A stretch of 64,000 nucleotides of DNA from a virus (IMGVR_UViG_3300015050_001523:32001-96000); one strand, 5' to 3'; shown: positions 7,142 to 57,821, counted from the stretch's first letter. Program-made: numbers and translations. Notes: generated by a model not told the origin, from the sequence alone.

Positions 7142-7399
7142 TCAAAAATTGTTTATTTTTATAACCATTTCAATTCTCATAACCCCATTAAAAATAAGAT
7201 AATTCTCAATTATAGATTTAAGAGATTTCCTCTTTTTGATTTCTTCCCAATATCCTTGCTCTGTAAAAGGATGACTATCTAAATAATAAACATTCATATT
7301 ACCAGGCCATTCAACAGCAGGACCGTCTTCTCGGTGAAGTTTATTATTTAAATAATGACGCTTTGTTCCAATGGCATCAATAATTAATCCATTTTTCAT
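7142..7399 (-). CDS. HREDGPA-repeat (MORN-variant-like) family, copy E1 (1 unit)
   Basis: MKNGLIID..LHREDGPA..YWEEIKKRKSL. Confidence 0.8.
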   Translation of the reverse strand: MKNGLIIDAIGTKRHYLNNKLHREDGPAVEWPGNMNVYYLDSHPFTEQGYWEEIKKRKSLKSIIENYLIFNGVMRIEMVIKINNF

Positions 7400-7418
7400 T
7401 AGATAATTCCTTTGTTAG

Positions 7419-7447
7419 TTTATAGCATTTTAAAATTTGGAAGTCAA
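7419..7447 (-). promoter_or_regulatory. sigma70-type promoter
   Basis: TTGACT-N17-TATAAA with TGC, upstream of RBS of E1. Confidence 0.7.
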
Positions 7448-7455
7448 CAAATTTT

Positions 7456-7710
7456 TCAGATCTTTACAAGACAAGATTGGTCAATTTCAATAATTTCTTT
7501 ACCAACCACAACTTCATACCTATAAAGAACTCCAATTGAATTAAAGTCTTTTATTTCTTCTTTTTCAATAACATTCAAAATAATAGCTAATCGATTGTTT
7601 CTTCCGGCTTGCCGTTCATTTAGTTCTTTTTTTCTTTTTAATTCTGAACTATAATCTATTTTTACAAGTTCTCCAACACAAAACTTAAGATCTTCTTTCC
7701 TTGATGACAT
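7456..7710 (-). CDS. hypothetical protein
   Basis: 84-aa ORF. Confidence 0.6.
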   Translation of the reverse strand: MSSRKEDLKFCVGELVKIDYSSELKRKKELNERQAGRNNRLAIILNVIEKEEIKDFNSIGVLYRYEVVVGKEIIEIDQSCLVKI

Positions 7711-7728
7711 ATGGTATAATAGGCTATT

Positions 7729-8163
7729 GTGTTTGAAATAAAAAGAGTTAGAAAAACATTTAAAAACTTAATGATTCTTAGAGAAATGGATGATACCTGT
7801 TTTCCAGAAGATTCTTATGCGCCTTTAGGGCTTCGCAAATATTCTTGGTGGTTTGTTTATGATGAAAACAATAAAGCAGTTGCCTATGCTGTAGGTTGTT
7901 CTAAAAAAGACAAAAGTTATTTTTTAGCAAGAGCTGGCGTTTTGCCTGAACAAAGAGGGCAAAATATTCAACAAATCCTAATAAATGAAAGAGTTAATAT
8001 GGCAAAATCCCTAGGTCTAAAGAATGTTATCACCTACACAAGCATCAACAACCCTCCTTCAATTAAGAACTTGAAAAAATGTGGATTTGTGGAATGGGTT
8101 GATGCCCCAAATTACTGGAAGACAGAAAATTTTATATCATGGATTCTCAATATTGGCAATTGA
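7729..8163 (+). CDS. GNAT family N-acetyltransferase
   Basis: V.PEQRGQNI motif A variant, N.PSIKNLKKCGF motif B; start uncertain. Confidence 0.8.
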   Translation: MFEIKRVRKTFKNLMILREMDDTCFPEDSYAPLGLRKYSWWFVYDENNKAVAYAVGCSKKDKSYFLARAGVLPEQRGQNIQQILINERVNMAKSLGLKNVITYTSINNPPSIKNLKKCGFVEWVDAPNYWKTENFISWILNIGN

Positions 8164-8315
8164 AATATTTCTAATTTTTATTAATAATTCTTTATTTTCT
8201 TTTAATTCTTCATTTTTTCTTTTTTGAATAATTAAAAGAGCTCGCAAAACAATTAATTTTTTATGAATTTTATTATAATTGTTTCCCAATTTCCATAAAG
8301 ATTTACCTTCCTATT

Positions 8316-21949: not shown

Positions 21950-22283
21950 AAAGATTATACTCTTTTGCTATTTGTTTTAGTCTTTTTGGCCAATCTTTTG
22001 GTTCCCTGCAATCATGAAGAGATTCTAATACAATTATCATATCAAATATCTTTTCATCAATTTGATATCCAGACTCATTTATTATCTGAATTAAAATTTC
22101 GGTTGAAGGACAAATATTTTTTAAATTATATTTATCATATAATTTATCATTAATAAGGCATCCAATTGCAGACTTATTTCCATATATGTCTTTATAAACG
22201 CTTGATAAATCAAGATTTAAGCTTTGTTTGTTTTGAGCTAATAGATGCCTTGAAATTTTATCAAATATATTTTGATTTGACAT
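21942..22283 (-). CDS. conserved hypothetical phage protein
   Basis: HLLAQNKQS..SAIGCLI..LHD motif. Confidence 0.6.
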   Translation of the reverse strand: MSNQNIFDKISRHLLAQNKQSLNLDLSSVYKDIYGNKSAIGCLINDKLYDKYNLKNICPSTEILIQIINESGYQIDEKIFDMIIVLESLHDCREPKDWPKRLKQIAKEYNLYG

Positions 22284-22680
22284 TTAGCAAAATTATATTA
22301 AGAGACTTTCTTCTTTCAATTTCTTTCCAATATTCTTCTTTAGAATAATTTTTTCCATTTAAGTAATAAGGACTATCTTTGCTTTTATGGGCTTCTTCTA
22401 AATTCTGACAAAGATCACCTATATAATATCTATCAGATGATTTAGAAATATAATCAAGAGCAGGACCATCTTCTCTGTGAAGTTTGCCATGAAGACAATA
22501 AGCCTTGTCACCGCATATCCATTCAATTGCAGGAAGATTTCCGTCTCGATGAGTTTTACCGTTTATAAACCATTCTTTACATTCGTCTGGCCATTCGCAA
22601 GCAGGACCATCTTCTCTATGAAGCTTGTCATTTAAATAATAACGCTTAGCACCATACTCAATTCTTAATCCATTTTTCAT
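22261..22680 (-). CDS. HREDGPA-repeat family, copy E4 (3 units)
   Basis: Conserved head, repeat units and tail. Confidence 0.8.
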   Translation of the reverse strand: MKNGLRIEYGAKRYYLNDKLHREDGPACEWPDECKEWFINGKTHRDGNLPAIEWICGDKAYCLHGKLHREDGPALDYISKSSDRYYIGDLCQNLEEAHKSKDSPYYLNGKNYSKEEYWKEIERRKSLNIILLNVKSKYI

Positions 22681-23042
22681 TTTATTAACTCACTTTTAAT
22701 GTTAAAAAGAATTACATTAAGAGACTTTCTTCTTATAATTTCTGTCCAATAATCTTTTTCAGAATAACTTTTATTATTTAAATAATATTCTTTACTTCCT
22801 TCTGGATATTCAATTGCAGGACCATCTTCTCGATGAAGAAGATTGTTCATCCACCATTCTTTATGTCCATTTCCATTTAGCCCTTCAAATGCAGGGCCGT
22901 CTTCTCGGTGCCTGTCTCCATTTAAAAACCATATTTTTGTTCCATTTGAATATTCAACGGCAGGACCATCTTCTCGATGAAGAAGATTGTTTAAATAATA
23001 TCGTTTGGCTCCATGTTCATTAATAATTAATCCATTTAACAT
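22677..23042 (-). CDS. HREDGPA-repeat family, copy E5 (3 units)
   Basis: Conserved head, repeat units and tail. Confidence 0.8.
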   Translation of the reverse strand: MLNGLIINEHGAKRYYLNNLLHREDGPAVEYSNGTKIWFLNGDRHREDGPAFEGLNGNGHKEWWMNNLLHREDGPAIEYPEGSKEYYLNNKSYSEKDYWTEIIRRKSLNVILFNIKSELIK

Positions 23043-24961: not shown

Positions 24962-26212
24962 TTAAACAATTCCTTCTTTAATTCTTTCAGAAACTGCTTC
25001 TAGACTCATATCGTTGTCCTCATCCTCATCCTCATCCTCATCATCATCATCATCTTCGTCGTCAGGATCTTTCTCTATTTCGTCTTCAGTTTCGTCTTCA
25101 GTTTCATCTTTATTTAGGAAATTTTCTAGTGACTGATTTTTTACCCAAGAAGAAAATAGGTCAGCAATTTTTACCGCATGTTCTCTTGAAATGTGCAAAT
25201 GATGATCATAGTCTTCATTTGTTATCTCAATATAATTTTCATAAAATGTTATTTGAGAATTAGAAAAATTTTCAGGATTAGAACCATCTGGATCATCTAT
25301 TTCTTCGATATCGATTATTACTGGCCCTACTGTTTTTTCTATTGATTTCAAAAGAGAAATTGGAAAAAAGTGCTCTTCTGTACCTGATTCATCTGAAACT
25401 TCAATTATTTCATTTTCATCTATTATAGCAAATTTTAATTTTTTATGCTGAAATAAACTAAGATCAATTTCTTCATCAGCAATTATCTTCATTTCTTTTA
25501 CCCCAAATTTTTTCCATTTTGGAATAAAATAGTCATAACAAGTTATGTTTGCATCTGTAAACAAATTTGATTTAATTGTTTTTTTTGATTTTTTTGTTTT
25601 TTTGATTGCCATAATTTCTTCTTTTTCTTTTGATTTGAGTGACTTTATGTAACCAGCATACAATGGAGATATGCGTTGCCACTCAAAAAGTCGATCTCTC
25701 CATTCGGAAGCAGCTTGATTCCAGTCTAAATCTTTATCCCAGTTTCCACTATCAGCATTGGTAATAATGGCCCATGCGAGATCAAGCATTTTTATAATTT
25801 CATCTTGTTCTATTTTTGATAAAATTATTTCATTATCCCTTTTGGGTATATTTTTAATTATTGTACCTAATTTCTCTACAAGTTCTTGTTTTATAATTTT
25901 TCTTTTCTTGATTTCTTCCCAATAATCTTTTTCTGAAAACTTTATATTATTTAAATAAAAATACTTAACTCCATTAGCAAACTTTCTAGCTGGACCGTTT
26001 TCTCGATGAAGTTCTCCATGGACATAATAAAATTTGTCTCCATCTGAATATTCAATAGCAGGAAGATCTCCTTCTCGATGAAGGTTTCCATTTTTCCACC
26101 AAGACTTATCACCATTTGGACACTCAATAGCAGGACCATCCTCTCTATGAAGGAGATCATTTAAAAAATATCGCTTGTCTCCAAAGCTATCAACAATTAA
26201 TCCATTTTTCAT
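24962..26212 (-). CDS. fusion ORF: HREDGPA-repeat copy E6 (3 units) + AWAIITNA domain + acidic C-terminal protein
   Basis: N-terminal 115 aa is family member; internal MAIKKTKK with own RBS-like AAAGAAG; D/E-rich tail. Confidence 0.7.
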   Translation of the reverse strand: MKNGLIVDSFGDKRYFLNDLLHREDGPAIECPNGDKSWWKNGNLHREGDLPAIEYSDGDKFYYVHGELHRENGPARKFANGVKYFYLNNIKFSEKDYWEEIKKRKIIKQELVEKLGTIIKNIPKRDNEIILSKIEQDEIIKMLDLAWAIITNADSGNWDKDLDWNQAASEWRDRLFEWQRISPLYAGYIKSLKSKEKEEIMAIKKTKKSKKTIKSNLFTDANITCYDYFIPKWKKFGVKEMKIIADEEIDLSLFQHKKLKFAIIDENEIIEVSDESGTEEHFFPISLLKSIEKTVGPVIIDIEEIDDPDGSNPENFSNSQITFYENYIEITNEDYDHHLHISREHAVKIADLFSSWVKNQSLENFLNKDETEDETEDEIEKDPDDEDDDDDEDEDEDEDNDMSLEAVSERIKEGIV

Positions 26213-27678
26213 TATCCAATATCATCTTCTTCTAAAGAATCTCCATAATATTTATCATAATCTTTTTCAATTGACATTATGGCATTATAGCTCTTATACC
26301 CAATAAAGACAAGTAAAATAACAATTAGACCCCCGATAAGGATAATTTTCCAAGTGTGCCAACCACCAACGCCATTTTCTTTTTTCGCTTCAATAACGGC
26401 CATGTTGGCATTTAGAAGGCCGGAGCCCATATCCTTATTTTCAATATCTGTTGCAGTTTCTACTAAAATCCTTTCAACTTCAGCAGGGTCAAGGACTCCT
26501 TCTCCAATTATTAGAGCGGCAACTCCAGCAACATGGGGAGCTGCCATTGAAGTCCCTTGATAGGCATAATAAGCGCCAGCTTCAGATGGTTTTCGTGGAT
26601 TTATTGTGTTCTGAAGAATTCCATCAAATGGATCAATTCTTGTATCTCCTCCAGGAGCCGAAAGGGTTACTCCGTCTCCATAATTTGAATAAAAAGAACG
26701 ATCATCATTTTTGTCAGTCGCTCCAACAGAAATACAATTATCATAACCAGCAGGATATCCAACATGCCTTGAGTTATCGTTTCCTGCTGCGCAAACAACA
26801 GTTACTCCATGCTCATAAGCATAGTTTACAGCATCTTCCATAATTTTAGAAGGTGATGGTCCACCGAGACTCATATTGATAACTTTGGCTCCGTTGTCAG
26901 TTGCATATCTAATGGCAGATGCGATATCTTCGACAGAACCATAGCCTTGAGCGCTCAGCACTTTTAGGGGCATTATGGTGGCCTTTGGAGCGATGCCAGC
27001 GACCCCGCGTCCATTGTTGGTTGACTGGGCGATTGTGCCTGCAACATGACTCCCATGAGAATGATCGTCTAAGCCATCAGGCAACCCTGAACTAAAAGTT
27101 ACTCCTTTAGTAAATTTTGTATTATTTAAATCTTCTAAAGCAGCATGCCCTTCATAGTCTTTATATGCAACACCAGTATCAATAACTGCAACTATTACTC
27201 CTTCTCCTTGTTTTGAATTTTTCCAAGCTTTTTCCATATCAAGCTTTTCAAAATTCCATTGATGCTTATAAAGTGGATCATTTGGAAAATTTGACGTTGA
27301 ATAATCTCCATGTCCAAGGTCTTCTAAAACAATTGGAGCTGGGACACTATAAAATGTAGAAGGTTCAATATTTTCAATATTGAAATCTAATACGAATGGA
27401 CAATCTCCATTCATAATATAGAGATGGTTACTCTCTGAATAAAATGAATCTACCGGTCGAAAATTTCTGTCAGCCCAAGTTTTTTCATAATCAGTAATTA
27501 TTCCTCGAAGCTCAAATTCATCAACAAATCCTTCTTTGTCTTGAGGGTCAATGAAATCAATAAGACATGTTTCTCCGTTTCTTTGAAGAAATTCATTGCT
27601 TGGCTCTTGATTTGAGCAAGCAGAAATGCAGGTTGAAATGCCAATTGCCAATATAAATGTTTTTATTGTTTTTTTCAT
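26212..27678 (-). CDS. subtilisin-like S8 serine protease, lipoprotein signal and C-terminal TM helix
   Basis: Triad VIDTG, HSHGSHVAG, GTSMAAPHVAG; lipobox ISAC; WKIILIGGLIVILLVFIGY. Confidence 0.93.
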   Translation of the reverse strand: MKKTIKTFILAIGISTCISACSNQEPSNEFLQRNGETCLIDFIDPQDKEGFVDEFELRGIITDYEKTWADRNFRPVDSFYSESNHLYIMNGDCPFVLDFNIENIEPSTFYSVPAPIVLEDLGHGDYSTSNFPNDPLYKHQWNFEKLDMEKAWKNSKQGEGVIVAVIDTGVAYKDYEGHAALEDLNNTKFTKGVTFSSGLPDGLDDHSHGSHVAGTIAQSTNNGRGVAGIAPKATIMPLKVLSAQGYGSVEDIASAIRYATDNGAKVINMSLGGPSPSKIMEDAVNYAYEHGVTVVCAAGNDNSRHVGYPAGYDNCISVGATDKNDDRSFYSNYGDGVTLSAPGGDTRIDPFDGILQNTINPRKPSEAGAYYAYQGTSMAAPHVAGVAALIIGEGVLDPAEVERILVETATDIENKDMGSGLLNANMAVIEAKKENGVGGWHTWKIILIGGLIVILLVFIGYKSYNAIMSIEKDYDKYYGDSLEEDDIG

Positions 27679-28046
27679 TTTGAGGATCCTTTGAGTTTGT
27701 CTGCAATTTTTGCAAGAATATAATTAAGAGATTTTCTTCTTTTGATTTCTTCCCAATAATTTTTTTCGGAATATTCTATGCCATCAAGAGCCCAGTCTTT
27801 TTTCCCATTCCAATTTTCTTCTCTTGCTGGGCCGTCTTCTCTATGAAGATTCCCATGAATAAAATAAGTATAAAACATATGTCCTTCAACTGCTGGCCCA
27901 TCGCTTCTATGAAGCTCATCATTTACATAATAATGCTTAGTGCCATCTTTCCATTCAACAGCAGGAAGATTTCCCTCCCGATGAAGCATATCATTTAAAT
28001 AATGGCGTTTAGTGCCGTATTTGTCAATAATTATTCCATTTTTCAT
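27675..28046 (-). CDS. HREDGPA-repeat family, copy E7 (3 units)
   Basis: Start at 28046 (MKNGIIIDK) with AAGGA RBS. Confidence 0.8.
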   Translation of the reverse strand: MKNGIIIDKYGTKRHYLNDMLHREGNLPAVEWKDGTKHYYVNDELHRSDGPAVEGHMFYTYFIHGNLHREDGPAREENWNGKKDWALDGIEYSEKNYWEEIKRRKSLNYILAKIADKLKGSSK

Positions 28047-28063: not shown

Positions 28064-28101
28064 CCTTGGAAGCTGGTTGAAGATTCAACCAGCTTCCAAG
28101 G
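28064..28101. other. perfect 18-bp stem hairpin (processing site or atypical terminator)
   Basis: CCTTGGAAGCTGGTTGAA-GA-TTCAACCAGCTTCCAAGG; no U-tract in transcription direction. Confidence 0.75.
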
Positions 28102-33077: not shown

Positions 33078-33379
33078 ATGTCTTTAACGACTTTAACGTC
33101 TGAGATTGACATCATCACATATCCAGCTGGGATGCCGAAATGGCCACCTTTAACGATATGTGTGACGACACAAGTCAACTCTCGACCAGTATAGCCTTCG
33201 CTATGACCGTCGATGATAATAGCTTCTGGCCAGCGCTCAAACGGCCTGTACTCGCGCAGATGTAGGACATCGCCAACTTGGAATTGTTGGCGATCAGCAA
33301 GACGAAACTCGGCTCGCTTGGAACCATCGAGCACCGATTGAAACGGACTTGGCCAAGTCTTGAGTTCGTGCGTTGTCAT
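33074..33379 (-). CDS. ASCH/PUA-like (DUF3850) domain protein
   Basis: HELKTWP..F..VLDGSK..EFR..DR..FQVGD.L.LREY. Confidence 0.85.
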   Translation of the reverse strand: MTTHELKTWPSPFQSVLDGSKRAEFRLADRQQFQVGDVLHLREYRPFERWPEAIIIDGHSEGYTGRELTCVVTHIVKGGHFGIPAGYVMMSISDVKVVKDI

Positions 33380-33843
33380 TAATTATAGCGATCCTTAATA
33401 GTAATTCCATCTTCAGTAACAACTTTATCTGCCATTCGTAAAGGTTCTAAACCTCCGCGAACCCCCCAATCTCCCCTCGAATTTTGAAATACTTCATGGA
33501 TTTCATTAGGGCGACCCAAACAATCTGCAAAGCAGAACGTAGCTTTTTTATATCCTGAAATATTTGAAAGAATATAATTAAGAGATTTTATCCTTTTAAT
33601 TTCTTTCCAATAGTCTTGTTCAGAATATTCTTGATCATTTAAAAAATAAAATTTTCCATATGTATATTCACAAGCGGGGCCATCTTCTCGATGAAGTTTA
33701 TTGTGAATCCAATATTCTTTATCTCCATTTTTCCGTTCAATGGCAGGAAGATTTCCGTCTCGATGAAATTTATCATTTAAGTAATAAAATTTCGTTCCAT
33801 ATTGATTAATGATCAATCCGTCTCTAATAATGTTTCCCATCAT
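33379..33843 (-). CDS. HREDGPA-repeat family, copy E8 (2 units) with long unrelated tail
   Basis: Family core then about 55 aa of non-family sequence. Confidence 0.8.
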   Translation of the reverse strand: MMGNIIRDGLIINQYGTKFYYLNDKFHRDGNLPAIERKNGDKEYWIHNKLHREDGPACEYTYGKFYFLNDQEYSEQDYWKEIKRIKSLNYILSNISGYKKATFCFADCLGRPNEIHEVFQNSRGDWGVRGGLEPLRMADKVVTEDGITIKDRYN

Positions 33844-37980: not shown

Positions 37981-38334
37981 TTATTTTTTTAGATTTGTTA
38001 AAATATAATTGAGAGATTTTCTCTTTTTGATTTCTTCCCAATAATATTGTTCAGAGAATTCTTTTCCATTTAAGATATAAGCTTTATATCCTCTTTTTAT
38101 ATATTCAATAGCTGGTCCATCTTCTCTATGATATTGGCCATTTATATAATAAGATTTATCTCCATTAAAATATTCAATAGCAGGAAGATTTCCGTCTCGA
38201 TGAAACTTTCCATGAATAAAATAAGCTTTAGTTCCATCTTTATCTTCGAAAGCGGGTCCATCTTCTCGATGAAGAATATCATTTAAATAATGTCGCCTAT
38301 TTCCAAATTCGTCAATAATTAATCCATTTCTCAT
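37981..38334 (-). CDS. HREDGPA-repeat family, copy E9 (3 units)
   Basis: Conserved head, repeat units and tail. Confidence 0.8.
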   Translation of the reverse strand: MRNGLIIDEFGNRRHYLNDILHREDGPAFEDKDGTKAYFIHGKFHRDGNLPAIEYFNGDKSYYINGQYHREDGPAIEYIKRGYKAYILNGKEFSEQYYWEEIKKRKSLNYILTNLKK

Positions 38335-38342: not shown

Positions 38343-38717
38343 CTACTTTTTGATGACGGCGACCAGGTTGTTCAGCCCGGTAAGAATATAATTTAGAGAT
38401 TTTCTTCTTTTAATTTCTTCCCAATAATAAGCTTCTTCAAAATATCTTTCTCCATTTAAATAATATTCTTTATCCCCATCTGAAAATTCAATGGCAGGTC
38501 CATTTTCTCGGTGAAGCCGTCCATTAATATAATAATTTTTCTTTCCGGTCGCCCATTCTATTGCAGGAAGATTTCCATCACGATGAGTTTCTCCATGAAT
38601 CATCCATTGTTTGTCTCCATTTATATTTTCAAATGCTGGTCCATCTTCTCTATGACGTCTATCATTTAGGTAATAACTCTTATTTCCAAATTCATCAATA
38701 ATTAATCCATTTTTCAT
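38343..38717 (-). CDS. HREDGPA-repeat family, copy E10 (3 units)
   Basis: Conserved head, repeat units and tail. Confidence 0.8.
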   Translation of the reverse strand: MKNGLIIDEFGNKSYYLNDRRHREDGPAFENINGDKQWMIHGETHRDGNLPAIEWATGKKNYYINGRLHRENGPAIEFSDGDKEYYLNGERYFEEAYYWEEIKRRKSLNYILTGLNNLVAVIKK

Positions 38718-39948: not shown

Positions 39949-39977
39949 AGGTTAGCATTGCTTTCATGTTGTGTCAA
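39949..39977 (-). promoter_or_regulatory. sigma70-type promoter
   Basis: TTGACA-N17-TAACCT with TGC; ATG 7 nt downstream. Confidence 0.75.
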
Positions 39978-40285
39978 GGCGTCCATCGATTTTTTTGAAC
40001 AAGACAATTTAAAACTTTGGGTTTATAATCGGGTGAATGCATTGAAAATATAACATCGGGTTCGTTATATTTTTTTCTAATGCTTGAAAGAATATAATTA
40101 AGAGACTTTCTCTTTTTAATTTCTTTCCAATAATATTCTTCAAGATATTCAATTCCACTTATATAATATTCTTTATTTCCATTTGGGAATTCAATTGCTG
40201 GCCCGTCTTCTCGGTGAAGAAAATCGTTTAAATAATGTCGCTTAGCCTTATCACTAATTTTAATAAAAATTCCAGTTTTCTTCAT
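39974..40285 (-). CDS. HREDGPA-repeat family, copy E11 (1 unit, diverged head)
   Basis: HYLNDFLHREDGPAIE..YWKEIKKRKSLNYILS. Confidence 0.75.
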   Translation of the reverse strand: MKKTGIFIKISDKAKRHYLNDFLHREDGPAIEFPNGNKEYYISGIEYLEEYYWKEIKKRKSLNYILSSIRKKYNEPDVIFSMHSPDYKPKVLNCLVQKNRWTP

Positions 40286-40287
40286 TT

Positions 40288-40674
40288 TTATTCCCATCTA
40301 TATATTTTTGTTTTATTTTTTATTATTTTTTTCAAGTATTCGCAAAAAATAAAATTGAGAGATTTTATTCTTTTGATTTCTTCCCAATAATCTTGTTCGG
40401 AAAATCTTATATGATTTAAGTAATAATGATTTCCATTAGCAAACTCTCTAGCTGGACCGTTTTCTCTATGATATTTTCCATAAACAAGATAAGTCTTTTC
40501 TCCATTTGGCCATTCAATGGCAGGAAGATTTCCTTCTCGATGAAGTTTTCCATGAAGATAGTAAAATTTATTTCCGCTTAGAAATTCAACAGCAGGACCA
40601 CCTTCTCTATGAAGAAGACCATTTAAATAATAATATTTGGTTCCAGATTCATCAATAATTAATCCATTTTTCAT
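40288..40674 (-). CDS. HREDGPA-repeat family, copy E12 (3 units)
   Basis: Tail duplicates C-terminus of 40678..41118. Confidence 0.8.
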   Translation of the reverse strand: MKNGLIIDESGTKYYYLNGLLHREGGPAVEFLSGNKFYYLHGKLHREGNLPAIEWPNGEKTYLVYGKYHRENGPAREFANGNHYYLNHIRFSEQDYWEEIKRIKSLNFIFCEYLKKIIKNKTKIYRWE

Positions 40675-40677
40675 ATT

Positions 40678-41118
40678 TTATTCCCACCTGTATATTTTTG
40701 TTTTATTTTCTATTATTTTTTTAATAAATTCATCAGAAGGTTTTTCTAGTTCTTGTGGGGTGTCCTCATCTGCCATAAAGAATTTTTGAGGTTCATTAAA
40801 TGTATTTATTGTTTTTTCAAGTTCAAAATTTGGAGTTGCAACAATCCCCAATCTAAAAGATTGTTCATCCATAAAAGTTTCTAAACTATACCATTTTACA
40901 ACAGATATATCTGGAAGAAATAAAGTCGATATTCCAGCTGGAATATCTTCATTAAAAACATTTCCTCTATGATAATTTATGATTTGTTTTGATTTGATAA
41001 GAATAGATTTTATAATACATCCTCCTGGAACGTTCATGGCTTCTGTATCATTTCCAATTGAATACCATCTATTTTGAGAAATATTTGGTTTGTTAATATA
41101 AATTTTATTATTTATCAT
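40678..41118 (-). CDS. hypothetical protein
   Basis: 146-aa ORF, AMNVPGGCII motif, flanked by E13 and E12. Confidence 0.6.
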   Translation of the reverse strand: MINNKIYINKPNISQNRWYSIGNDTEAMNVPGGCIIKSILIKSKQIINYHRGNVFNEDIPAGISTLFLPDISVVKWYSLETFMDEQSFRLGIVATPNFELEKTINTFNEPQKFFMADEDTPQELEKPSDEFIKKIIENKTKIYRWE

Positions 41119-41417
41119 ATAAATCTCTCTTTAATATTTCGGCAAAATTTTGAAAGAATATTATTAAGAGATTTTCTCTTTTTAATTTCCTGCCAATAAT
41201 CTTCTTTAGAATATTCAATATTATTTAAAAAGAAATATTCTCTTCCGTCTGGCATTAAAATGGCAGGCCCATCTTCTCTATGAAGAAGATGTCCATTAAT
41301 AATCCACTGTTTCTCGCCGTTCACCCATTCAATAGCAGGCCCATCTTCTCTATGAAGCTTATTATTTACATAATAACATTTGGTTCCACGGCCATTAACA
41401 ATTAATCCATTTAGCAT
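41115..41417 (-). CDS. HREDGPA-repeat family, copy E13 (2 units)
   Basis: Conserved head, repeat units and tail. Confidence 0.8.
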   Translation of the reverse strand: MLNGLIVNGRGTKCYYVNNKLHREDGPAIEWVNGEKQWIINGHLLHREDGPAILMPDGREYFFLNNIEYSKEDYWQEIKKRKSLNNILSKFCRNIKERFI

Positions 41418-49200: not shown

Positions 49201-49581
49201 TCATTCATTTGATAATCTTTTTTTTAGATTTGAAAGAATAAAATTAAGAGATTTTCTCCTTTTAATTTCTTTCCAATAATCTTTTTTTGTAAAAAAGATA
49301 TAATTGTTTAAATAATAATGACTCATTCTGCCTGTTTCGCCTGTTGCTGTATGAAAAGCTGGTCCGTCTTCTCTATGATATTCTCCATGAATAAAATAAG
49401 ACTTATCTCCGTTTGCAAATTCAATTGCAGGAAGATTTCCCTCTCGATGCCGTTCTCCATAGAGATACCATGCTTTATATCCATTATTATATTCAACAGC
49501 AGGACCATCTTCTCTATGAAGAAGATCGTTTAACCAATATCTCTTTACTCCATTATTACTAATAATTAATCCATTTTTCAT
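49201..49581 (-). CDS. HREDGPA-repeat family, copy E14 (3 units)
   Basis: Conserved head, repeat units and tail. Confidence 0.8.
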   Translation of the reverse strand: MKNGLIISNNGVKRYWLNDLLHREDGPAVEYNNGYKAWYLYGERHREGNLPAIEFANGDKSYFIHGEYHREDGPAFHTATGETGRMSHYYLNNYIFFTKKDYWKEIKRRKSLNFILSNLKKRLSNE

Positions 49582-50879: not shown

Positions 50880-50962
50880 TTTAAATAACCTTTGCGAATC
50901 CATCGTTGGTAGAAAAATAAATATTTCGGCAACCAACTGATCAAAAATTTATCATACTTCTT

Positions 50963-51406: not shown

Positions 51407-51443
51407 AAGTTATTTCCTAATAGTTTTCTCTTCTTTATATTTT

Positions 51444-51836: not shown

Positions 51837-51842
51837 GCTTAA

Positions 51843-51870
51843 AGGATAGCGCGAAGCCATCGAAAGTCAA
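51843..51870 (-). promoter_or_regulatory. sigma70-type promoter
   Basis: TTGACT-N16-TATCCT; ATG 7 nt downstream. Confidence 0.75.
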
Positions 51871-51891
51871 GGAGAATCGAACCAAAATCAA

Positions 51892-51921
51892 TCAATATGG
51901 CAATATTAATCCATTTCTCAT
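51892..51921 (-). pseudogene. 5' remnant of HREDGPA-repeat family (MRNGLILPY*)
   Basis: ataaatATGAGAAATGGATTAAT identical to start of E9, then abrupt divergence and TGA. Confidence 0.65.
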
Positions 51922-51923
51922 AT

Positions 51924-52373: not shown

Positions 52374-52383
52374 AAAGTTATTC

Positions 52384-53412
52384 CTATCTAATTTCATAAC
52401 CTTCTAAAATAAGATTATCTCGAAGTAAGTTATTTAGATTATTTACTTCATTATTCAAAAGAGAACGGTCTAAAGATCTACAATTTATTCTATAGCAATA
52501 TGAAGTTTTTCCATTTTTGTTTGTAAATTTATCAATTTGCACAACAGATTCTGCCAAATCTCCAAAAACATTTCTAACATGTTCATAAAAATCATTTGGA
52601 GAATAATTATCTGGCTCCCAAAAAGAGATATCTTTATAGCATAAAGGATATTTTGAATAAGGTTGAAATTTTGTAATTTCTCCTTCTTTGAATTGAGACA
52701 AAAAGCGATCGTCTTTTGACCAGAAAAGTCTAATATCTGGAATCTCAAAAAGAATCATTGCCAATCTTTCAAGTCCCAATCCGAAAGCCCATCCCAAATT
52801 TGAAACTTTACAATTAGACAAAATTTCTTGATGAATTACTCCACAACCAAGAACTTCTAATTTTTTATCATTCCAATTTACTTCAAATTCAAATGAAGGT
52901 TCTGTAAATGGAAAATATGAATTTGTAATTTCATATGTGCATTCAGGAAATAAATAAGAAACTAAAGAAGATAAAGTTGACAATAAATCTTTTTCAATGT
53001 CTTCTTTTGATGCATTTGGGATTATTTTTACTCCCTCCATTTGATGGAATACTGGATAATGAGAAGAATCAATTTCGTCCCTCCTAAAGACAGGGCCAGA
53101 AACTAAAAACCTTTCTTCTTTTTTATTTAGAAAATATGTTTGATGTGCAGAAGTATGCGTCCTTAAAACTTTGTTATTGTCTAAATAATAAGTGTCAGAA
53201 ACGCTTCTAGAAACATGATCTTTTGGAATCAAAAGGCTATCAAAATTATCATATATTTCAACAATAGGATCTAAAGAATCAAAACATTTAAATTCTTCAC
53301 CAAAGAATGATTGGATTCTTTTTTTGATAATTGATATTGGATGATTTGGAATTAGATGAAGATTTCTATCTTTTATTTTCCAAATATTTTCTGGAATGTT
53401 TAATCCTATCAT
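52384..53412 (-). CDS. pheS: monomeric organelle-type phenylalanine-tRNA ligase (catalytic domain + FDX-ACB)
   Basis: NLHL..NHPI..IK, NFDSLLIP.DHVSR..SDTYY, LRTHTSAHQ, FRRDEID..HYPVFHQMEG, GWAFGLGLERLAM, then SKYP..YKDISFW anticodon-binding domain in the same 342-aa chain. Confidence 0.92.
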   Translation of the reverse strand: MIGLNIPENIWKIKDRNLHLIPNHPISIIKKRIQSFFGEEFKCFDSLDPIVEIYDNFDSLLIPKDHVSRSVSDTYYLDNNKVLRTHTSAHQTYFLNKKEERFLVSGPVFRRDEIDSSHYPVFHQMEGVKIIPNASKEDIEKDLLSTLSSLVSYLFPECTYEITNSYFPFTEPSFEFEVNWNDKKLEVLGCGVIHQEILSNCKVSNLGWAFGLGLERLAMILFEIPDIRLFWSKDDRFLSQFKEGEITKFQPYSKYPLCYKDISFWEPDNYSPNDFYEHVRNVFGDLAESVVQIDKFTNKNGKTSYCYRINCRSLDRSLLNNEVNNLNNLLRDNLILEGYEIR

Positions 53413-53428
53413 ATTTTGTCATCTTTCG

Positions 53429-53986: not shown

Positions 53987-53988
53987 TA

Positions 53989-54384
53989 TTAAATTCCAAG
54001 CTTATTTTTTAAGCGTTCTAATTCTTTTAAATCTCTTTTAAGCTGCTCTTCTTCTGATTTTTGTTTTTTTTGTTCTCTCTCTTCTTGTTCTTGTTTTTTT
54101 CTAATAGAAACTTTTTCATAAGTTGCATTGTTTATTAGCTCTTGAAAATCTTCTGGGAGGTTTTCATTTGTAAAAAGCTTATATTCATATTCTGCATGCC
54201 AATTTTCCTTTGGCTGTGCTTCATATTCTGAAATTTTTTCAATCAGGTTATTCTGATCTGAAAATTCATATAATGAATTATATGAATCTAAAGCATCATA
54301 AGCACCAAATCCATAAGTTATAGAAGAGTATTCTCTAATAACAACAAGAACATATGGAAGACTTTTTATGATATCAAGATTCAT
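53989..54384 (-). CDS. hypothetical protein with coiled-coil tail
   Basis: 131-aa ORF. Confidence 0.6.
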   Translation of the reverse strand: MNLDIIKSLPYVLVVIREYSSITYGFGAYDALDSYNSLYEFSDQNNLIEKISEYEAQPKENWHAEYEYKLFTNENLPEDFQELINNATYEKVSIRKKQEQEEREQKKQKSEEEQLKRDLKELERLKNKLGI

Positions 54385-54692
54385 TTGGATATATTTCCTG
54401 CTTTATTGAATAATTCTTTCAAATTTGAAAGAATATAATTAAGAGATTTTCTCCTTTTAATTTCTTTCCAATAATTTTCTTCAGAAAATTCTTTTCCATT
54501 TATAAGATAAAATTTGGTTCCACTTGAATTTTCAACAGCCGGACTATCTTTTCGATGAAGAATCCCTTTTATATAATAAGATTTATCTCCACCTAAATAT
54601 TCGCAGGCCGGAAGATTTCCTTCTCGATGAAATTGCCCATTTAAATAATATCGTTTGGTTCCATATGCATCAATAATTAATCCATTTCTCAT
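54381..54692 (-). CDS. HREDGPA-repeat family, copy E15 (2 units)
   Basis: Conserved head, repeat units and tail; ATGA overlaps both sides. Confidence 0.8.
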   Translation of the reverse strand: MRNGLIIDAYGTKRYYLNGQFHREGNLPACEYLGGDKSYYIKGILHRKDSPAVENSSGTKFYLINGKEFSEENYWKEIKRRKSLNYILSNLKELFNKAGNISK

Positions 54693-55231: not shown

Positions 55232-55419
55232 TATTTATAGATCAAAACAAGAATGGTAAATAAAGAGACAAGAAATAAACTAAATAAAACTCCACGTGTC
55301 CAAATAAGTTTCATAATTACCGCATGATCTTCATGCATGCAGCCTTTTAAGAATCTGATTCTTTCTTCGTAGGAATTGATGATTTGTATCTTTTCATTTT
55401 CTTCTTTATAATTGAGCAT
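55231..55419 (-). CDS. small membrane protein
   Basis: C-terminal hydrophobic helix. Confidence 0.55.
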   Translation of the reverse strand: MLNYKEENEKIQIINSYEERIRFLKGCMHEDHAVIMKLIWTRGVLFSLFLVSLFTILVLIYK

Positions 55420-55444
55420 AAATAACCTTGACCTTCATGATCTC

Positions 55445-55472
55445 ATTGTAACTCTTCTGCATGAGAAGTCAA
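55445..55472 (-). promoter_or_regulatory. sigma70-type promoter
   Basis: TTGACT-N16-TACAAT. Confidence 0.75.
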
Positions 55473-55503
55473 CTCTTTCAAGTTTTCATTTTTGTTGATT
55501 TTA

Positions 55504-56097
55504 TTAGGTCTGAAAATTTCTAAAAGTTATATTAATTCTGGGCTTCCAAACCTTAGTTCTTTTAGGAAGAGAATGATCCCAATTTTTTTGAGTTTCTCCT
55601 TCCATCAAAAGCAAACTCCCATTTTCAAGAATTATTTTTCTTTTATTTTTATGATCGGTTTTTTTTCTTAATAAGAAATCTCGTTCGGCGCCAAAGCTAA
55701 CACTTGCAATTTTTGAACCAATTTCTGATTCATCATCAGAATGCCAGCCAACAACATTCAAACCTGTCTCATATAAATTAACAAGGGCAGAATTAAATGT
55801 TGTTTTACAAATTCCTTCAATTTTATTTTTTATATCTAAAAGAGAAGATGACCAATAAATTGGTTCAAGTTTTATTCCAGAATAGATATAAACTATATCA
55901 GGACTATCGGCAAACCATTGATGTTTTCGTGGAACATTATGTGTTTTTCCATATACAGAAATTTTGTCTTGCCTCCAAAGAATTGAATTAAATAATTTTT
56001 CGAAAATCAAATTGGGATTTTCAAAATTTACAATGTTTGGAGGATAGTAATTAACAACTCCCGAATTATCATCAATAATTGATATTGAATTCGTCAT
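55504..56097 (-). CDS. alkB: AlkB (ALKBH2/3-like) 2OG-Fe(II) dioxygenase
   Basis: LVNLY..G...GWHSDDE, SVSFGAER.F, HSLPK, RINITFR. Confidence 0.92.
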   Translation of the reverse strand: MTNSISIIDDNSGVVNYYPPNIVNFENPNLIFEKLFNSILWRQDKISVYGKTHNVPRKHQWFADSPDIVYIYSGIKLEPIYWSSSLLDIKNKIEGICKTTFNSALVNLYETGLNVVGWHSDDESEIGSKIASVSFGAERDFLLRKKTDHKNKRKIILENGSLLLMEGETQKNWDHSLPKRTKVWKPRINITFRNFQT

Positions 56098-56537
56098 TTT
56101 GTTTGATCAAAATCAAAAGGACGTAAAAGAGGATCATGATATGTTTTTGGTGATGGAAGATATTTCTCTGGAAGCTCATCTAATTTTACTTTTGTTATGC
56201 GAGATCGCATATAAAGTTCACCAGAAGGAACTTTCTCTTCTAAAATGGCTCCATAATCACATAAAAGCCCTTCATTTGAGCTGTGTTTTGAAAGTAGTTC
56301 ATGCATTGTCAACAAACCATCAAGATATTCTTTAATTGATTTTTTCTCTGAGCGAACAAATAGAGTTCTTGTAATGGTTGGCTCACATGTTAAATCGCAA
56401 GAACACCATTTTTCAATATAAGATTCTCCATCTTTACCAATCCACTCAGACAATAAAGGTCCTTGAAAATCTTCAAGATCACGAACATATTCTAATTTAG
56501 GCAAATTAGATTCTGTTCCAATAATTGGAAATATCAC
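56094..56537 (-). CDS. hypothetical protein (DUF6575-like, from recall)
   Basis: LEDFQGPLLS..DGESYI.KWC pattern. Confidence 0.45.
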   Translation of the reverse strand: MIFPIIGTESNLPKLEYVRDLEDFQGPLLSEWIGKDGESYIEKWCSCDLTCEPTITRTLFVRSEKKSIKEYLDGLLTMHELLSKHSSNEGLLCDYGAILEEKVPSGELYMRSRITKVKLDELPEKYLPSPKTYHDPLLRPFDFDQTK

Positions 56538-56776
56538 TTTTCAACCTTTTCTTCTTTTTCTGGTAACTGCGATTGGCAAGCTGAGTTTAAACCGTTGTCC
56601 CATGGCGTGTCAGTCTCTCCACACGTAACGCAGCGTATATCGTAGATGGAGCTATCAGAGAAGCGTATTCGATGGCCTAGCGAGTCTGGCCTGATCAGGT
56701 ATGGATCTTCCCCAAAATTATCTCTGGTTGCGCGAGCAATAATAGTTTCTAATTGGTTAGTTGATTTTTGAGTCAT
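56534..56776 (-). CDS. hypothetical protein with Cys/His motif
   Basis: GH....SDSS.YD.RC..CG.TD. Confidence 0.55.
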   Translation of the reverse strand: MTQKSTNQLETIIARATRDNFGEDPYLIRPDSLGHRIRFSDSSIYDIRCVTCGETDTPWDNGLNSACQSQLPEKEEKVEK

Positions 56777-57050
56777 AAGTTTCTTTATAATTTCTAGTTT
56801 TTAAAAAATCTTCTGGGTCCAAATCCAGAAATATTGCTCTTTTTACATCTTCTGCCAACTCATCATCAATTGCATATTCTTCAATTTTTGAAATAACTTC
56901 AGAGCGAGACCAAAAATCTTTGAACTCTATAAGAATATCGTCATCTTCGCCTTCTTTTGTTACCGAAATAAAAAAAGTATTCAAAGGCTTGTCAAGTCCG
57001 GCAACAACTTCATATTCTGGATTTTTTGAATTTAATTTAATTCTACTCAT
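56757..57050 (-). CDS. hypothetical protein
   Basis: 97-aa ORF, VAGLDKPLNTFF. Confidence 0.6.
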   Translation of the reverse strand: MSRIKLNSKNPEYEVVAGLDKPLNTFFISVTKEGEDDDILIEFKDFWSRSEVISKIEEYAIDDELAEDVKRAIFLDLDPEDFLKTRNYKETYDSKIN

Positions 57051-57069
57051 TTAATTTTCTTCTTTATCT

Positions 57070-57489
57070 TTAATATAATTTAAGATCTTTGGTAATTGGA
57101 TCAATTTTTGAAGAGAAATCTGGCCCAATTGCAACAGTTGTATAGGTCTCAATTCCTTTAAATTCTGTCCTTCCTGAATCCTTTATTATTGAACAAATTA
57201 TATTTGAATCATTTGCTTTATTGTAAATATCTAAAAGTTCTTGTTCTGAATCAACAGTTAAACAAATTTTTGTAAATGAGCCTTGCATCCATTTGTGCAT
57301 GGCCTCTGAATTATGAACAAACTTGCAACAATACTCATTGTTTATATTTGAATCAATATTGTTTGAATTTTGTTCTTTCATTAAGTTTAAAAAAACTGCA
57401 AGAGAAGCATGGGCACCTTGGGCGACTTCTTTTCCCCTTCTCATTTTTAAATCTTTTCTAATTACTATAACTTGTTTTATATCGCTCAT
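57070..57489 (-). CDS. pth2: peptidyl-tRNA hydrolase Pth2 (archaeal/eukaryotic type)
   Basis: KQVIVIRKDLKMRRGK..AQGAHAS, KICL, I.DSGRTE, T.VAIGP. Confidence 0.93.
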   Translation of the reverse strand: MSDIKQVIVIRKDLKMRRGKEVAQGAHASLAVFLNLMKEQNSNNIDSNINNEYCCKFVHNSEAMHKWMQGSFTKICLTVDSEQELLDIYNKANDSNIICSIIKDSGRTEFKGIETYTTVAIGPDFSSKIDPITKDLKLY

Positions 57490-57503
57490 GATTCTAATAT
57501 ATT

Positions 57504-57821
57504 TTAAATTTTAATGAAATCTTTTTTAAGATTTGAAAGAATAAAACTAAGAGACTTTCTCCTTTCAATCTCTTTCCAATAATCTTCTTCAGAATATCTT
57601 CTATCGTCTAAATAATAGTCATAATCTTTATTTCCCCATTCGATAGCAGGGCCGTCTTCTCTATGAAGTTTTCCATGGATTCTCCATTCTTTGGTTCCAC
57701 CATATTTATCTTCGAAAGCGGGTCCATCTTCTCGATGGAGCTTGTCATTTAAAAAATACCACTTGGTTCCTAATTTATATAGATCAACATGTAACCCGTT
57801 CATTATAGACTGATTTTTCAT
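57504..57821 (-). CDS. HREDGPA-repeat family, copy E16 (2 units)
   Basis: MNGLHVD..LHREDGPA..YWKEIERRKSLSFILSNLK. Confidence 0.8.
   Translation of the reverse strand: MKNQSIMNGLHVDLYKLGTKWYFLNDKLHREDGPAFEDKYGGTKEWRIHGKLHREDGPAIEWGNKDYDYYLDDRRYSEEDYWKEIERRKSLSFILSNLKKDFIKI

What the first reader, a model, noticed from the sequence alone, without database searches (positions are those of the whole stretch)
7142..57821. Sixteen dispersed HREDGPA-repeat mini-genes with conserved DNA ends and no conserved stop: candidate self-spreading cassette or variable binder library
Seen: 16 copies (7142, 16104, 16390, 22261, 22677, N-terminus of 24962, 27675, 33379, 37981, 38343, 39974, 40288, 41115, 49201, 54381, 57504), roughly 5-6 kb of the window. 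Most start with a near-fixed ATG(A/C/T)..AATGGATTA head; E8, E11 and E16 have diverged heads. Each carries 1-3 mix-and-match units of two types (HREDGPA, HR[D/E]GNLPA) and ends in YW.EIK.RKSLN.IL, with strong nucleotide conservation (AAATCTCTTAATTATATTCTTTCAAAT). Similarity then stops abruptly and the frame runs on into unrelated local sequence (2 to about 55 aa; about 300 aa in E6). All copies are co-oriented with local transcription, sit exactly at gene junctions (often with ATGA overlaps) and four are tandem pairs. Established: such repeats resemble MORN-variant beta-hairpin repeats known from phages, giant viruses and YwqK-type immunity proteins. Inference: either a mobile coding element that inserts next to start codons without breaking operons, or a shuffled repertoire of binders (for example against host toxins or defence proteins).
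Basis: partly seen in the sequence, partly recalled or inferred. Interest (0 to 1): 0.88.

Follow-up and report, generated by a model that had tools for sequence, protein, structure and literature searches.

The report
Expanded MORN-like repeat gene family
A 322-kb uncultured freshwater phage carries about 35 old, diverged copies (16 in this window) of a small beta-hairpin repeat protein gene; this looks like a large ordinary gene family of probable protein binders, not a self-spreading DNA cassette.

Summary
All 16 genes are at the stated coordinates, with the described head, one to three units of two types, the conserved tail and no fixed stop. A profile built from them finds 35 members across the 322,518-bp phage genome, about 4.6% of it.

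The mobile-cassette reading is not supported:
- No pair of copies exceeds 79% nucleotide or 69% protein identity.
- Upstream DNA shares only a generic ribosome-binding site.
- The genome has no reverse transcriptase and no integrase.
- The family tree is a star.

The "conserved ends" are the N-cap and C-cap of a repeat fold. The AlphaFold model (pLDDT 96) resembles MORN and YwqK-type proteins. The variable middle comes from in-frame 23-residue unit gains and losses.

Some points do favour a diversifying binder family:
- One face of each hairpin is hypervariable.
- A 59-nt identical patch joins two copies 143 kb apart.
- Synonymous sites are unusually uniform at the head and, less so, at the tail.
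- In a near relative, flanking genes are 92-96% identical but the family gene in the same slot is only about 62% identical and has one more unit.

Function is untested. This repeat type matches about 39,000 database clusters, has no Pfam model of its own and turned up in none of my paper searches. Earlier notes of this scan flagged similar expansions in at least nine genomes.

The parts
7142..7399 (-). E1, 85 aa, one unit (A), canonical head and tail, 20-aa variable end
16104..16388 (+). E2, 94 aa, AA; directly after the GroEL gene; tandem with E3
16390..16740 (+). E3, 116 aa, BA; tandem with E2, yet each is the other's least similar family partner (49% aa)
22261..22680 (-). E4, 139 aa, ABA with an insertion before the last hairpin; ATGA overlap with E5
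22677..23042 (-). E5, 121 aa, AAA; carries the 59-nt tract identical to the copy at genome 197464-198324, including the rare GLNGNGHKEWW insertion
24962..26212 (-). E6, 416 aa: N-terminal ABA domain with the tail cut after YWEEIKKRK, fused to about 300 residues with no detectable homologue and an acidic end
27675..28046 (-). E7, 123 aa from the ATG at 28046 (not the TTG at 28088), BAA; ATGA overlap with the downstream protease gene
33379..33843 (-). E8, 154 aa, BA, extended head, 55-aa unrelated C-terminal extension; its tail shares 56 identical nt with the copy at genome 178204
37981..38334 (-). E9, 117 aa, ABA, shortest tail (ends ...SLNYILTNLKK); tandem with E10
38343..38717 (-). E10, 124 aa, ABA; modelled copy (pLDDT 96.4: beta hairpins plus two C-terminal helices); E9 and E10 are mutual best matches (68% aa)
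39974..40297 (-). E11, 107 aa, one unit, diverged head, 35-aa unrelated end; overlaps E12 by 10 nt
40288..40674 (-). E12, 128 aa, ABA; its unit 1 is 91% nt but 78% aa identical to unit 1 of the copy at genome 97091
41115..41417 (-). E13, 100 aa, AA; 11 nt after the ClpB-like gene; a contig of a roughly 94%-identical relative loses homology exactly at 41417
49201..49581 (-). E14, 126 aa, ABA; in the variable slot between the Metallophos and helicase backbone genes
54381..54692 (-). E15, 103 aa, BA; ATGA overlaps on both sides; positional counterpart P0006 (120 aa, ABA) in a near relative
57504..57821 (-). E16, 105 aa, AA, six extra residues before the head

Best explanation
These are members of one large, old, lineage-specific gene family: 35 genes, 16 of them in this window, in an uncultured T4-like jumbo phage.

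Shown:
- Each gene encodes a small cytoplasmic repeat protein. It has an N-terminal half-unit cap (MKNGLII..G.K.YYLN), then one to three (up to seven) 23/24-residue beta-hairpin units (HREDGPA.E...G.K.WY.NG..), then a two-helix C-terminal cap (YW.EIK.RKSLNYIL).
- The 'conserved DNA ends' are the two caps of this fold. The variable middle reflects in-frame loss or gain of whole units, mostly from an A-B-A ancestor.
- The 'missing stop' reflects an unconstrained stretch after the last conserved helix turn. That stretch is occasionally replaced by a fused extension (membrane segment, coiled coil, capsid-peptide copy, or the 300-residue tail of E6).
- The genes lie in the variable slots between conserved backbone genes (GroEL, protease, RNA ligase, ClpB, helicase, Metallophos, SpoU), as other accessory genes of T4-like phages do.
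- They have diverged to 46-69% protein identity.
- At least one unit-sized patch has been copied between distant loci.

Inferred:
- The copies spread by duplication and ordinary recombination, with occasional short non-allelic gene conversion.
- The proteins are binders. The conserved face of the hairpin sheet packs against the cap helices, and the hypervariable face (unit positions 10, 14, 16, plus 11 and 22) contacts different targets.
- Those targets are most plausibly host proteins such as toxins or defence effectors, by analogy with YwqK-type immunity proteins.
For: - Family size: 35 members by profile search of all six frames. The 33 full genes total 14.7 kb, or 4.6% of the genome.
- Age of copies: over all pairs, maximum nucleotide identity is 79%, maximum protein identity 69%, median dN 0.34 and median dS 0.82.
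- Tree: star-shaped, with terminal branches of 0.35-0.75 and members from other contigs interleaved.
- Upstream DNA: only an AAAGGA-type ribosome-binding site is shared.
- Units: units within one gene are no more alike than units of different genes (0.582 vs 0.586). The best unit pairs are same-index units of different genes. This fits whole-gene duplication followed by unit loss.
- Unit indel in a relative: E15 against its positional counterpart P0006 differs by exactly one 23-residue unit.
- Fold: the AlphaFold2 model has pLDDT 96.4, with hairpins plus helices at 95-106 and 108-123. Matches are MORN1, MORN4 and junctophilin in the PDB, clusters named 'MORN repeat protein' and 'YwqK family antitoxin' at TM 0.57-0.80, and many phage and giant-virus proteins.
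- Variability pattern: in the unit, variable positions 10/14/16 (entropy 3.0-3.4 bits) alternate with conserved positions 9/13/15/17 (0.2-1.0 bits). dN/dS is about 1.3 at variable and 0.09 at conserved positions.
- Mosaic tract: 59 identical nt between E5 and the copy at genome 197464.
- Collinear relatives: L084 and L085 keep the backbone order but differ in nearly all small genes.
- Precedent: an expansion of about 35 copies is known in a jumbo phage, the ZnR family of Bacillus phage G (PMC7824862).
Against: - No function, partner or expression data exist. The binder role and the anti-defence target are analogy only.
- Synonymous sites in the first 21 nt, and to a lesser degree in the tail, are far more uniform than codon usage predicts. 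Plain old paralogy does not predict this. Gene conversion or selection on the mRNA must be invoked, and neither was shown.
- In a near relative, SpoU is 92% and a 138-aa protein 96% identical, but the family gene in the same slot is only about 62% identical. This could mean replacement by another copy rather than vertical descent.
- The dN/dS contrast used positions chosen after seeing their variability, so it cannot prove positive selection.
- No family gene here sits next to a recognisable toxin gene, unlike ywqK.
Confidence: 0.7

Rival explanations
1. Actively shuffled binder repertoire. The nucleotide-conserved head and tail serve as homology arms. The phage's own recombination machinery uses them to swap whole genes or single units between loci and between co-infecting relatives, so a library of variable binders is continually re-sorted under selection by host defences.
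For: - Synonymous sites at the head (GGA 19/19, TTA 16/17, ATT 31/31) and, less strongly, the tail (TCT 17/18) are far more uniform than in the unit cores or in other genes.
- A 59-nt identical tract spans variable residues and joins loci 143 kb apart.
- Unit 1 of E12 and of the copy at genome 97091 is 91% nt but only 78% aa identical.
- The syntenic slot in a near relative holds a copy no closer to E15 than to other paralogues.
- A contig of a roughly 94%-identical relative loses homology exactly at the E13 start codon.
- Similarity shows no decline with genomic distance.
Against: - Only one statistically clear conversion tract was found among about 500 pairs. The 56-nt tail tract lies in the most conserved segment and could be chance.
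- No pair is more than 79% identical, so exchange, if any, is rare or short.
- The neighbouring non-family genes in the same slot of the relative are at least as diverged, so the whole region is plastic, not just the family gene.
- Uniform 5' codons could instead reflect selection for translation initiation.
Confidence: 0.2
2. Self-spreading coding cassette. This would be a mobile element lacking its own stop codon that inserts next to start codons and proliferates within the genome.
For: - There are many dispersed copies, all co-oriented with local transcription.
- The family is absent from 21-kb collinear stretches of two relatives.
- One HNH gene lies directly upstream of the copy at genome 178204.
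- The family also occurs in unrelated phages and in bacteria.
Against: - There are no young copies.
- No conserved DNA lies outside the coding sequence; flanking repeats or target duplications were not looked for.
- There is no reverse transcriptase or integrase, and only single GIY-YIG and HNH genes in 322 kb.
- The 3' ends are scattered in non-canonical members.
- The ends correspond to structural caps of the protein.
- Relatives that lack copies also differ in almost all other small genes there.
Confidence: 0.04
3. Non-conflict role. The proteins would be housekeeping adaptors of the phage itself, for example assembly or membrane-associated scaffolds like eukaryotic MORN proteins. On this view the copy number reflects dosage or sub-functionalisation rather than an arms race.
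For: - The closest solved folds are scaffold and adaptor MORN proteins.
- Some members carry membrane segments or a coiled coil.
- The copies are old and kept intact under purifying selection at scaffold positions (dN/dS 0.09).
Against: - Collinear relatives lack the family in the same region, so the copies are dispensable accessory genes.
- They lie among small accessory genes, not in the structural module. None lies between about 236 and 322 kb of the genome.
- The hypervariable surface argues against one fixed partner.
Confidence: 0.06

Closest known systems
MORN repeat proteins (MORN1, MORN4, junctophilins, radial-spoke RSP1/10; Pfam PF02493)
   Same: - Period of about 23 residues.
- Elongated sheet of beta hairpins with a helix alongside.
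- Best PDB fold matches (6t69 E 7e-4; MORN4/Myo3a 6jle).
- Protein-binding scaffolds.
   Different: - No sequence-profile match.
- The signature is HREDGPA.E...G.K.WY.NG, not YxGxWxxGxxxGxG.
- The proteins are tiny (1-3 units), with their own N-cap and two-helix C-cap.
- TM-scores are only about 0.4.
YwqK-type antitoxin / MORN-variant proteins (Pfam MORN_2 PF07661, COG2849)
   Same: - AlphaFold DB clusters with this name match the model at TM 0.57-0.65 and 23-30% identity.
- One homologue (P0035, 46% identical to E10) is named this way by JGI.
- Small binders that neutralise a partner protein (from general knowledge of the B. subtilis YwqJ/YwqK pair).
   Different: - The MORN_2 profile gives one weak hit in the whole genome (E 0.07).
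- No toxin gene was seen beside any copy examined.
- There are 35 dispersed copies instead of one gene paired with a toxin.
Pfam DUF6745 (PF20530)
   Same: Many metagenomic homologues carry it. Profile positions about 63-100 resemble one unit.
   Different: - It is a 206-position domain model, not a repeat model.
- Window copies score 12 bits against a cut-off of 27.
- Only the 7-unit gene passes, and only by summing hits.
- No paper mentions it.
Lineage-specific expansions of small domains in large viruses (about 35 ZnR copies in Bacillus phage G, PMC7824862; MORN and ankyrin families of giant viruses)
   Same: - Tens of diverged paralogues of one small binding module.
- Dispersed and in tandem.
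- Located in accessory regions of a very large viral genome.
- Similar scale (about 35 copies).
- Fold relatives are multi-copy in Agrobacterium phage Atu_ph07 and in giant viruses.
   Different: - The module is different (beta-hairpin repeat with caps).
- Unit number varies between copies.
- Nucleotide-level uniformity of the head is unexplained.

Membership tests
MORN repeat (Pfam PF02493) | Match to the family's sequence profile at or near its cut-off | tested here: not met
   No hit at E <= 1 for six window copies. No hit at E <= 1 in the whole genome.
MORN repeat (Pfam PF02493) | Fold: array of about 23-residue beta hairpins forming an elongated sheet | tested here: met
   The model has pLDDT 96.4. 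Top PDB and Swiss-Prot matches are all MORN proteins, with E 7e-4 to 1e-2 and TM about 0.4.
YwqK / MORN_2 (PF07661, COG2849) | Match to the MORN_2 profile | tested here: not met
   One hit in the genome, E 0.07, 13 bits against a cut-off of 29.6. NCBIfam finds nothing.
YwqK / MORN_2 (PF07661, COG2849) | Structural similarity to proteins annotated as YwqK family antitoxin | tested here: met
   Several AlphaFold DB clusters match at E 7e-9 to 7e-6 and TM by query 0.35-0.65 (four of them 0.57-0.65). These are automatic names on predicted structures.
YwqK / MORN_2 (PF07661, COG2849) | Gene paired with a cognate toxin gene (LXG/YwqJ type) | tested here: not met
   Neighbours identified are GroEL, protease, RNA ligase, ClpB-like ATPase, Metallophos, SpoU, 2OG-Fe oxygenase and unnamed small ORFs. 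Not every neighbour could be named.
DUF6745 (PF20530) | Score above the gathering threshold (27 bits) | tested here: not met
   Window copies score about 12 bits. Genome-wide, only the 7-unit gene at 197464-198324 passes, by summed hits.
Mobile element (transposon, homing cassette or retroelement) | Young, near-identical copies at different sites | tested here: not met
   Maximum 79% nucleotide identity over about 500 pairs.
Mobile element (transposon, homing cassette or retroelement) | Conserved non-coding termini, inverted repeats or target duplications | tested here: not met
   Conserved non-coding termini were tested and not found: similarity starts at the ATG, with only a generic ribosome-binding site upstream, and it fades within the coding tail, with nothing conserved downstream. 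Inverted repeats and target duplications were not searched for.
Mobile element (transposon, homing cassette or retroelement) | An encoded or nearby transposase, integrase, reverse transcriptase or homing nuclease | tested here: not met
   RVT_1: none. Phage_integrase: none. HNH_3: none. One GIY-YIG (genome 26305) and one HNH (genome 178702, beside one copy) in 322 kb.
Mobile element (transposon, homing cassette or retroelement) | Filled versus precisely empty sites in close relatives | tested here: inconclusive
   - L084 and L085 (60-73% aa in backbone genes) have no copies, but they differ in nearly all small genes.
- The near relative has a copy in the E15 slot.
- DNA of near relatives could not be fetched.
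Diversity-generating retroelement | Reverse transcriptase plus a template repeat nearly identical to the variable region | tested here: not met
   No reverse transcriptase. No near-identical repeat pairs apart from one 59-nt tract.
Lineage-specific paralogue expansion | Many copies sharing lineage-specific features, diverged from one another, in accessory regions | tested here: met
   - Twenty-two members share the canonical M[KRL]NG head; 19 of these also carry the canonical tail. The only other carriers of both caps seen among the 120 listed hits are a few short metagenomic contigs, one of them (P0006) shown to come from a close relative.
- Unrelated phages have other caps.
- The tree is a star.
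- Copies sit in the slots between backbone genes.

The most novel reading that the evidence does not exclude
The family would be a recombination-driven variable binder repertoire of a phage. The head and tail are kept identical at the DNA level because they serve as homology arms. Units and whole genes are swapped between about 35 loci and between co-infecting relatives. The hypervariable hairpin face is selected to neutralise a changing set of host toxins or defence effectors. That would make it a viral counterpart of cassette-based variable receptor systems, built on an unnamed repeat class with about 39,000 database clusters.
Probability: 0.12. Interest if true: 0.8.

Novelty: new variant of a known kind. 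Interest (0 to 1): 0.45.

Why it matters
- Large viruses are known to amplify small binding modules, usually in conflicts with their hosts. This case ties with the largest expansion reported in a jumbo phage (about 35 copies).
- The repeat class involved is abundant: 39,201 cluster representatives match the profile, 5,234 of them at E <= 1e-30. It has no Pfam model of its own and I found no paper on it.
- Naming and modelling this 'HREDGPA repeat' would annotate tens of thousands of hypothetical proteins.
- If the copies neutralise host toxins or defence proteins, each would be a ready-made probe for a host defence component.
- The odd DNA-level uniformity of the gene ends offers a concrete test of whether phages shuffle such modules by recombination.

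Tried and rejected
- Close relatives in public phage records: megablast of 8 kb found nothing. tblastn of E10 found only Celeribacter phage P12053L and Agrobacterium phage Atu_ph07.
- IMG/VR scans with the ClpB-like gene gave only relatives at 51% identity or less. Scans with the RNA ligase and the helicase gave none.
- The single metagenome scan, with SpoU, gave only 31-44% relatives.
- The 321-kb contig carrying P0004 is an unrelated jumbo phage that merely shares the family.
- DNA of the near relative (5.8-kb, 25-kb and 4.1-kb contigs) could not be fetched. P0081 is not on record.
- The genome search cannot reach the relatives' records.
- Laying four public runs gave only fragmentary contigs. 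The many 'joints' between copies come from abundant foreign family members, not from deletions.
- The 131-aa neighbour of E15 has no detectable homologue.
- The C-terminal 300 residues of E6 have no homologue or fold match.
- The sigma-70 promoter scan was below the shuffled expectation and the terminator scan within shuffle noise (13 vs 8.8 +/- 3.2), so nothing can be said about timing of expression.
- PHROGs, NCBIfam and a PDB sequence search gave nothing for the family.
- Paper searches for HREDGPA and DUF6745 gave nothing.
- Simple recent tandem duplication is rejected. Only E9/E10 are mutual best matches, E2/E3 are each other's worst, and similarity shows no decline with genomic distance.
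- Intragenic unit amplification is rejected.

Full report
**What the window is.** The window is bases 32001-96000 of a single 322,518-bp contig (GC 33.6%). The tools class it as an IMG/VR virus record, about 93% complete. It encodes GroEL, a ClpB-like ATPase, helicases, an RNA ligase, SpoU and a PheRS-like protein. The runs that hold parts of it are freshwater, freshwater-sediment and aquatic metagenomes.

**Checking the observation.**
- E7 more plausibly starts at the ATG at 28046.
- An HMM built from the 16 finds 35 members among all stop-to-stop frames of the genome, with E from 1e-78 to 3e-9. Thirty-three are full genes totalling 14.7 kb, or 4.6% of the genome. Twenty-seven lie on the minus strand. 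None lies between about 236 kb and the contig end.
- Unit architectures are ABA (10), AA (9), AAA (5), BA (3) and A (2). A few longer genes have up to seven units.
- Some members carry C-terminal additions: membrane segments, a coiled coil, the capsid-peptide copy noted earlier by this scan, and E6's 300 unrelated residues.
- The genes are packed like all others here, with junctions from a 23-nt overlap to a 118-nt gap and five ATGA overlaps. 'Sitting at gene junctions' is therefore true but not special.

**The DNA ends.**
- Upstream of the ATG only a generic AAAGGA ribosome-binding site is shared.
- Downstream, conservation fades within about four codons after ...SLNYILSN, three to four residues before the shortest stop. 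Nothing is conserved beyond that.
- Non-canonical members end earlier, at different points.
- The ends are nevertheless more uniform at synonymous sites than codon bias explains. In the head GGA is used 19/19, TTA 16/17 and ATT 31/31 times, against 0.60, 0.49 and 0.43 in the first seven codons of 217 other ORFs. In the tail TCT is used 17/18 times against 0.34 in the body of those ORFs; this excess is smaller than at the head.
- Four-fold sites in the HREDGPA cores are close to the codon-usage expectation.
- I regard this as a real, unexplained feature. Candidate explanations are short-tract gene conversion, which feeds on the most conserved segments, and selection on the 5' mRNA.

**Age and relationships of the copies.**
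- Over about 500 pairs, nucleotide identity averages 68% (maximum 79%) and protein identity 56% (maximum 69%). Median dN is 0.34 and median dS 0.82.
- A maximum-likelihood tree is a star with no well-supported deep structure. Seven homologues from other contigs that share the same caps interleave with the phage's own copies.
- Of the three tandem pairs that could be compared, only E9/E10 are mutual best matches. E2/E3 are each other's least similar partners. Similarity shows no decline with genomic distance.
- Units within a gene are no more alike than units of different genes, and the best unit pairs are same-index units of different genes. This points to duplication of whole A-B-A genes followed by loss of unit 1 or unit 2, not to unit amplification.
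- There is one clear mosaic. E5 and the seven-unit gene at genome 197464 share 59 identical nucleotides across variable residues, including a rare three-residue insertion, inside a stretch of about 150 nt of raised identity. A 56-nt identical tail tract (E8 against genome 178204) lies in the most conserved segment and is not significant on its own.

**Search for a mobility partner.** The genome has no reverse transcriptase, no tyrosine integrase and no HNH_3. It has one GIY-YIG gene and one HNH gene, the latter next to one family copy. This excludes a diversity-generating retroelement and gives no support for transposition or homing.

**Relatives.**
- Two collinear relatives were fetched through the helicase. 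L084 has helicase and ClpB 73% identical. L085, from a 355-kb contig, has them 61-63% identical.
- Both relatives share several backbone genes with the window in the same order. L085 has SpoU, the 138-aa protein, Metallophos, the helicase, an 81-aa protein and ClpB; L084 has the 138-aa protein, the helicase, the 81-aa protein and ClpB. Neither has a family member in 21.6 kb, where this phage has eight. Almost all other small genes differ as well.
- A much closer relative is known only from short contigs of one JGI sample. Its SpoU is 92% and its 138-aa protein 96% identical to those here.
- Its gene order is 2OG-Fe oxygenase, 136 aa, 177 aa, family gene P0006 (120 aa), 131 aa, SpoU. That mirrors 2OG-Fe oxygenase, 62 aa, 180 aa, E15, 131 aa, SpoU in the window.
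- P0006 and E15 are identical at only 60 of 97 aligned residues and differ by exactly one 23-residue unit. P0006 is no closer to E15 than to several other paralogues.
- The 131-aa neighbour has no detectable homologue at all. The whole slot is therefore fast-changing, not the family gene alone.
- In the same sample, a 25-kb contig has a family gene directly after an (intein-bearing) RNA ligase, as E10 is here.
- A contig of a relative about 94% identical, in run X2, aligns across the end of ClpB and stops exactly at the E13 start codon. I could not see what follows it.
- So copies have positional counterparts in close relatives and are absent in distant ones. Whether the counterparts are diverged orthologues or swapped paralogues remains open.

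**What the protein is.**
- Pfam, PHROGs, NCBIfam and PDB sequence searches give nothing significant. DUF6745 scores about 12 bits, MORN gives nothing and MORN_2 gives E 0.07 once.
- AlphaFold2 with a 60-sequence alignment gives pLDDT 96.4: a run of beta hairpins followed by helices at 95-106 and 108-123.
- Fold searches return MORN1, MORN4, junctophilin and radial-spoke proteins in the PDB (best E 7e-4, TM about 0.4). In AlphaFold DB they return clusters named 'MORN repeat protein' and 'YwqK family antitoxin' (TM up to 0.80). In the viral library there are 41 hits at E <= 1e-3, among them several proteins of Agrobacterium phage Atu_ph07 and of giant viruses.
- The head is a half-unit and the tail is the helical cap, which explains conserved ends around a variable number of units.
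- Within the unit, positions 10, 14 and 16 are hypervariable (about 3.0-3.4 bits). The alternating positions 9, 13, 15 and 17 are conserved. That fits one exposed, variable face.
- dN/dS is about 1.3 at the variable positions and 0.09 at the scaffold positions. The positions were chosen after the fact, so this shows a lack of constraint, not proven positive selection.
- The profile matches 39,201 cluster representatives among 1.84 billion (5,234 at E <= 1e-30). Many are long multi-repeat proteins that hit only a fragment of DUF6745.
- No paper in the library contains HREDGPA or DUF6745. The survey of 224 jumbo phages does not mention MORN or YwqK, but it calls a 35-copy zinc-ribbon expansion in phage G 'unprecedented'.

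**Verdict.** The mobile-cassette interpretation fails every test I could run. The binder-family interpretation fits the fold, the variability pattern and the mosaic tract, but rests on analogy. Earlier notes of this scan report HREDGPA-repeat expansions with other caps in at least nine genomes. I did not test those notes, but they suggest a recurrent phenomenon in large phages. I rate this a new variant of a known kind (expansion of a MORN-like repeat family in a large virus), of moderate interest. Two concrete open points remain: the DNA-level uniformity of the gene ends, and the fast turnover of copies between close relatives.

Noticed in passing
G000:C1:322159-322518 and G000:C1:1-942 (outside the window): Both ends of the contig lie inside family genes. 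Read across the junction, the frame stays open (...EDYWKEIK | IKMKNGLIVD...). The assembly probably broke, or was joined, in this repeat family, and the record may be circularly permuted.
   Followed up: partly
window 22677-23042 and G000:C1:197464-198324: A 59-nt identical tract lies within about 150 nt of raised identity, between two copies 143 kb apart that are otherwise about 68% identical. It covers a rare GLNGNGHKEWW insertion and is evidence of non-allelic gene conversion.
   Followed up: yes
window 41417 (start codon of E13): A 1,192-nt contig of a relative about 94% identical (run X2) aligns over the 3' end of the ClpB-like gene and the 11-nt spacer. It stops exactly at the first base of E13. 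Its remaining 331 nt are less than 80% like the window.
   Followed up: partly
window 52384-53412 (-): The phage encodes a phenylalanyl-tRNA synthetase alpha-like protein (tRNA-synt_2d plus FDX-ACB). The near relative with 92-96% identical flanking genes has a 173-aa gene in that place instead.
   Followed up: no
window 38737-39942 (-): This is a T4 Rnl1-type RNA ligase of 401 aa. In a related 25-kb contig a 707-aa gene with a faint RNA_ligase (PF09414) hit, carrying an intein and a LAGLIDADG domain, is likewise followed by a family gene.
   Followed up: no
G000:C1:178702-178839 (-), outside the window: The only HNH endonuclease gene of the genome lies directly upstream of the family copy at 178204-178560.
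   Followed up: no
L001:9557-10441: An unrelated 321-kb metagenomic jumbo-phage contig has its own tandem pair of HREDGPA-repeat genes with different caps. Nearby are an intein-bearing AAA protein, Thg1, RtcB and an NAD-dependent ligase.
   Followed up: partly
window 40288-40674 and G000:C1:97091-97447: Unit 1 of these two copies is 91% identical in DNA but only 78% in protein: six nucleotide differences give five amino-acid changes. Nearly all recent change there is non-synonymous.
   Followed up: partly
window 14458-16086 (+) and 41429-43924 (-): The phage encodes its own GroEL and a ClpB/ClpA-like double-AAA protein. Both are directly followed by family genes (E2/E3 and E13).
   Followed up: no
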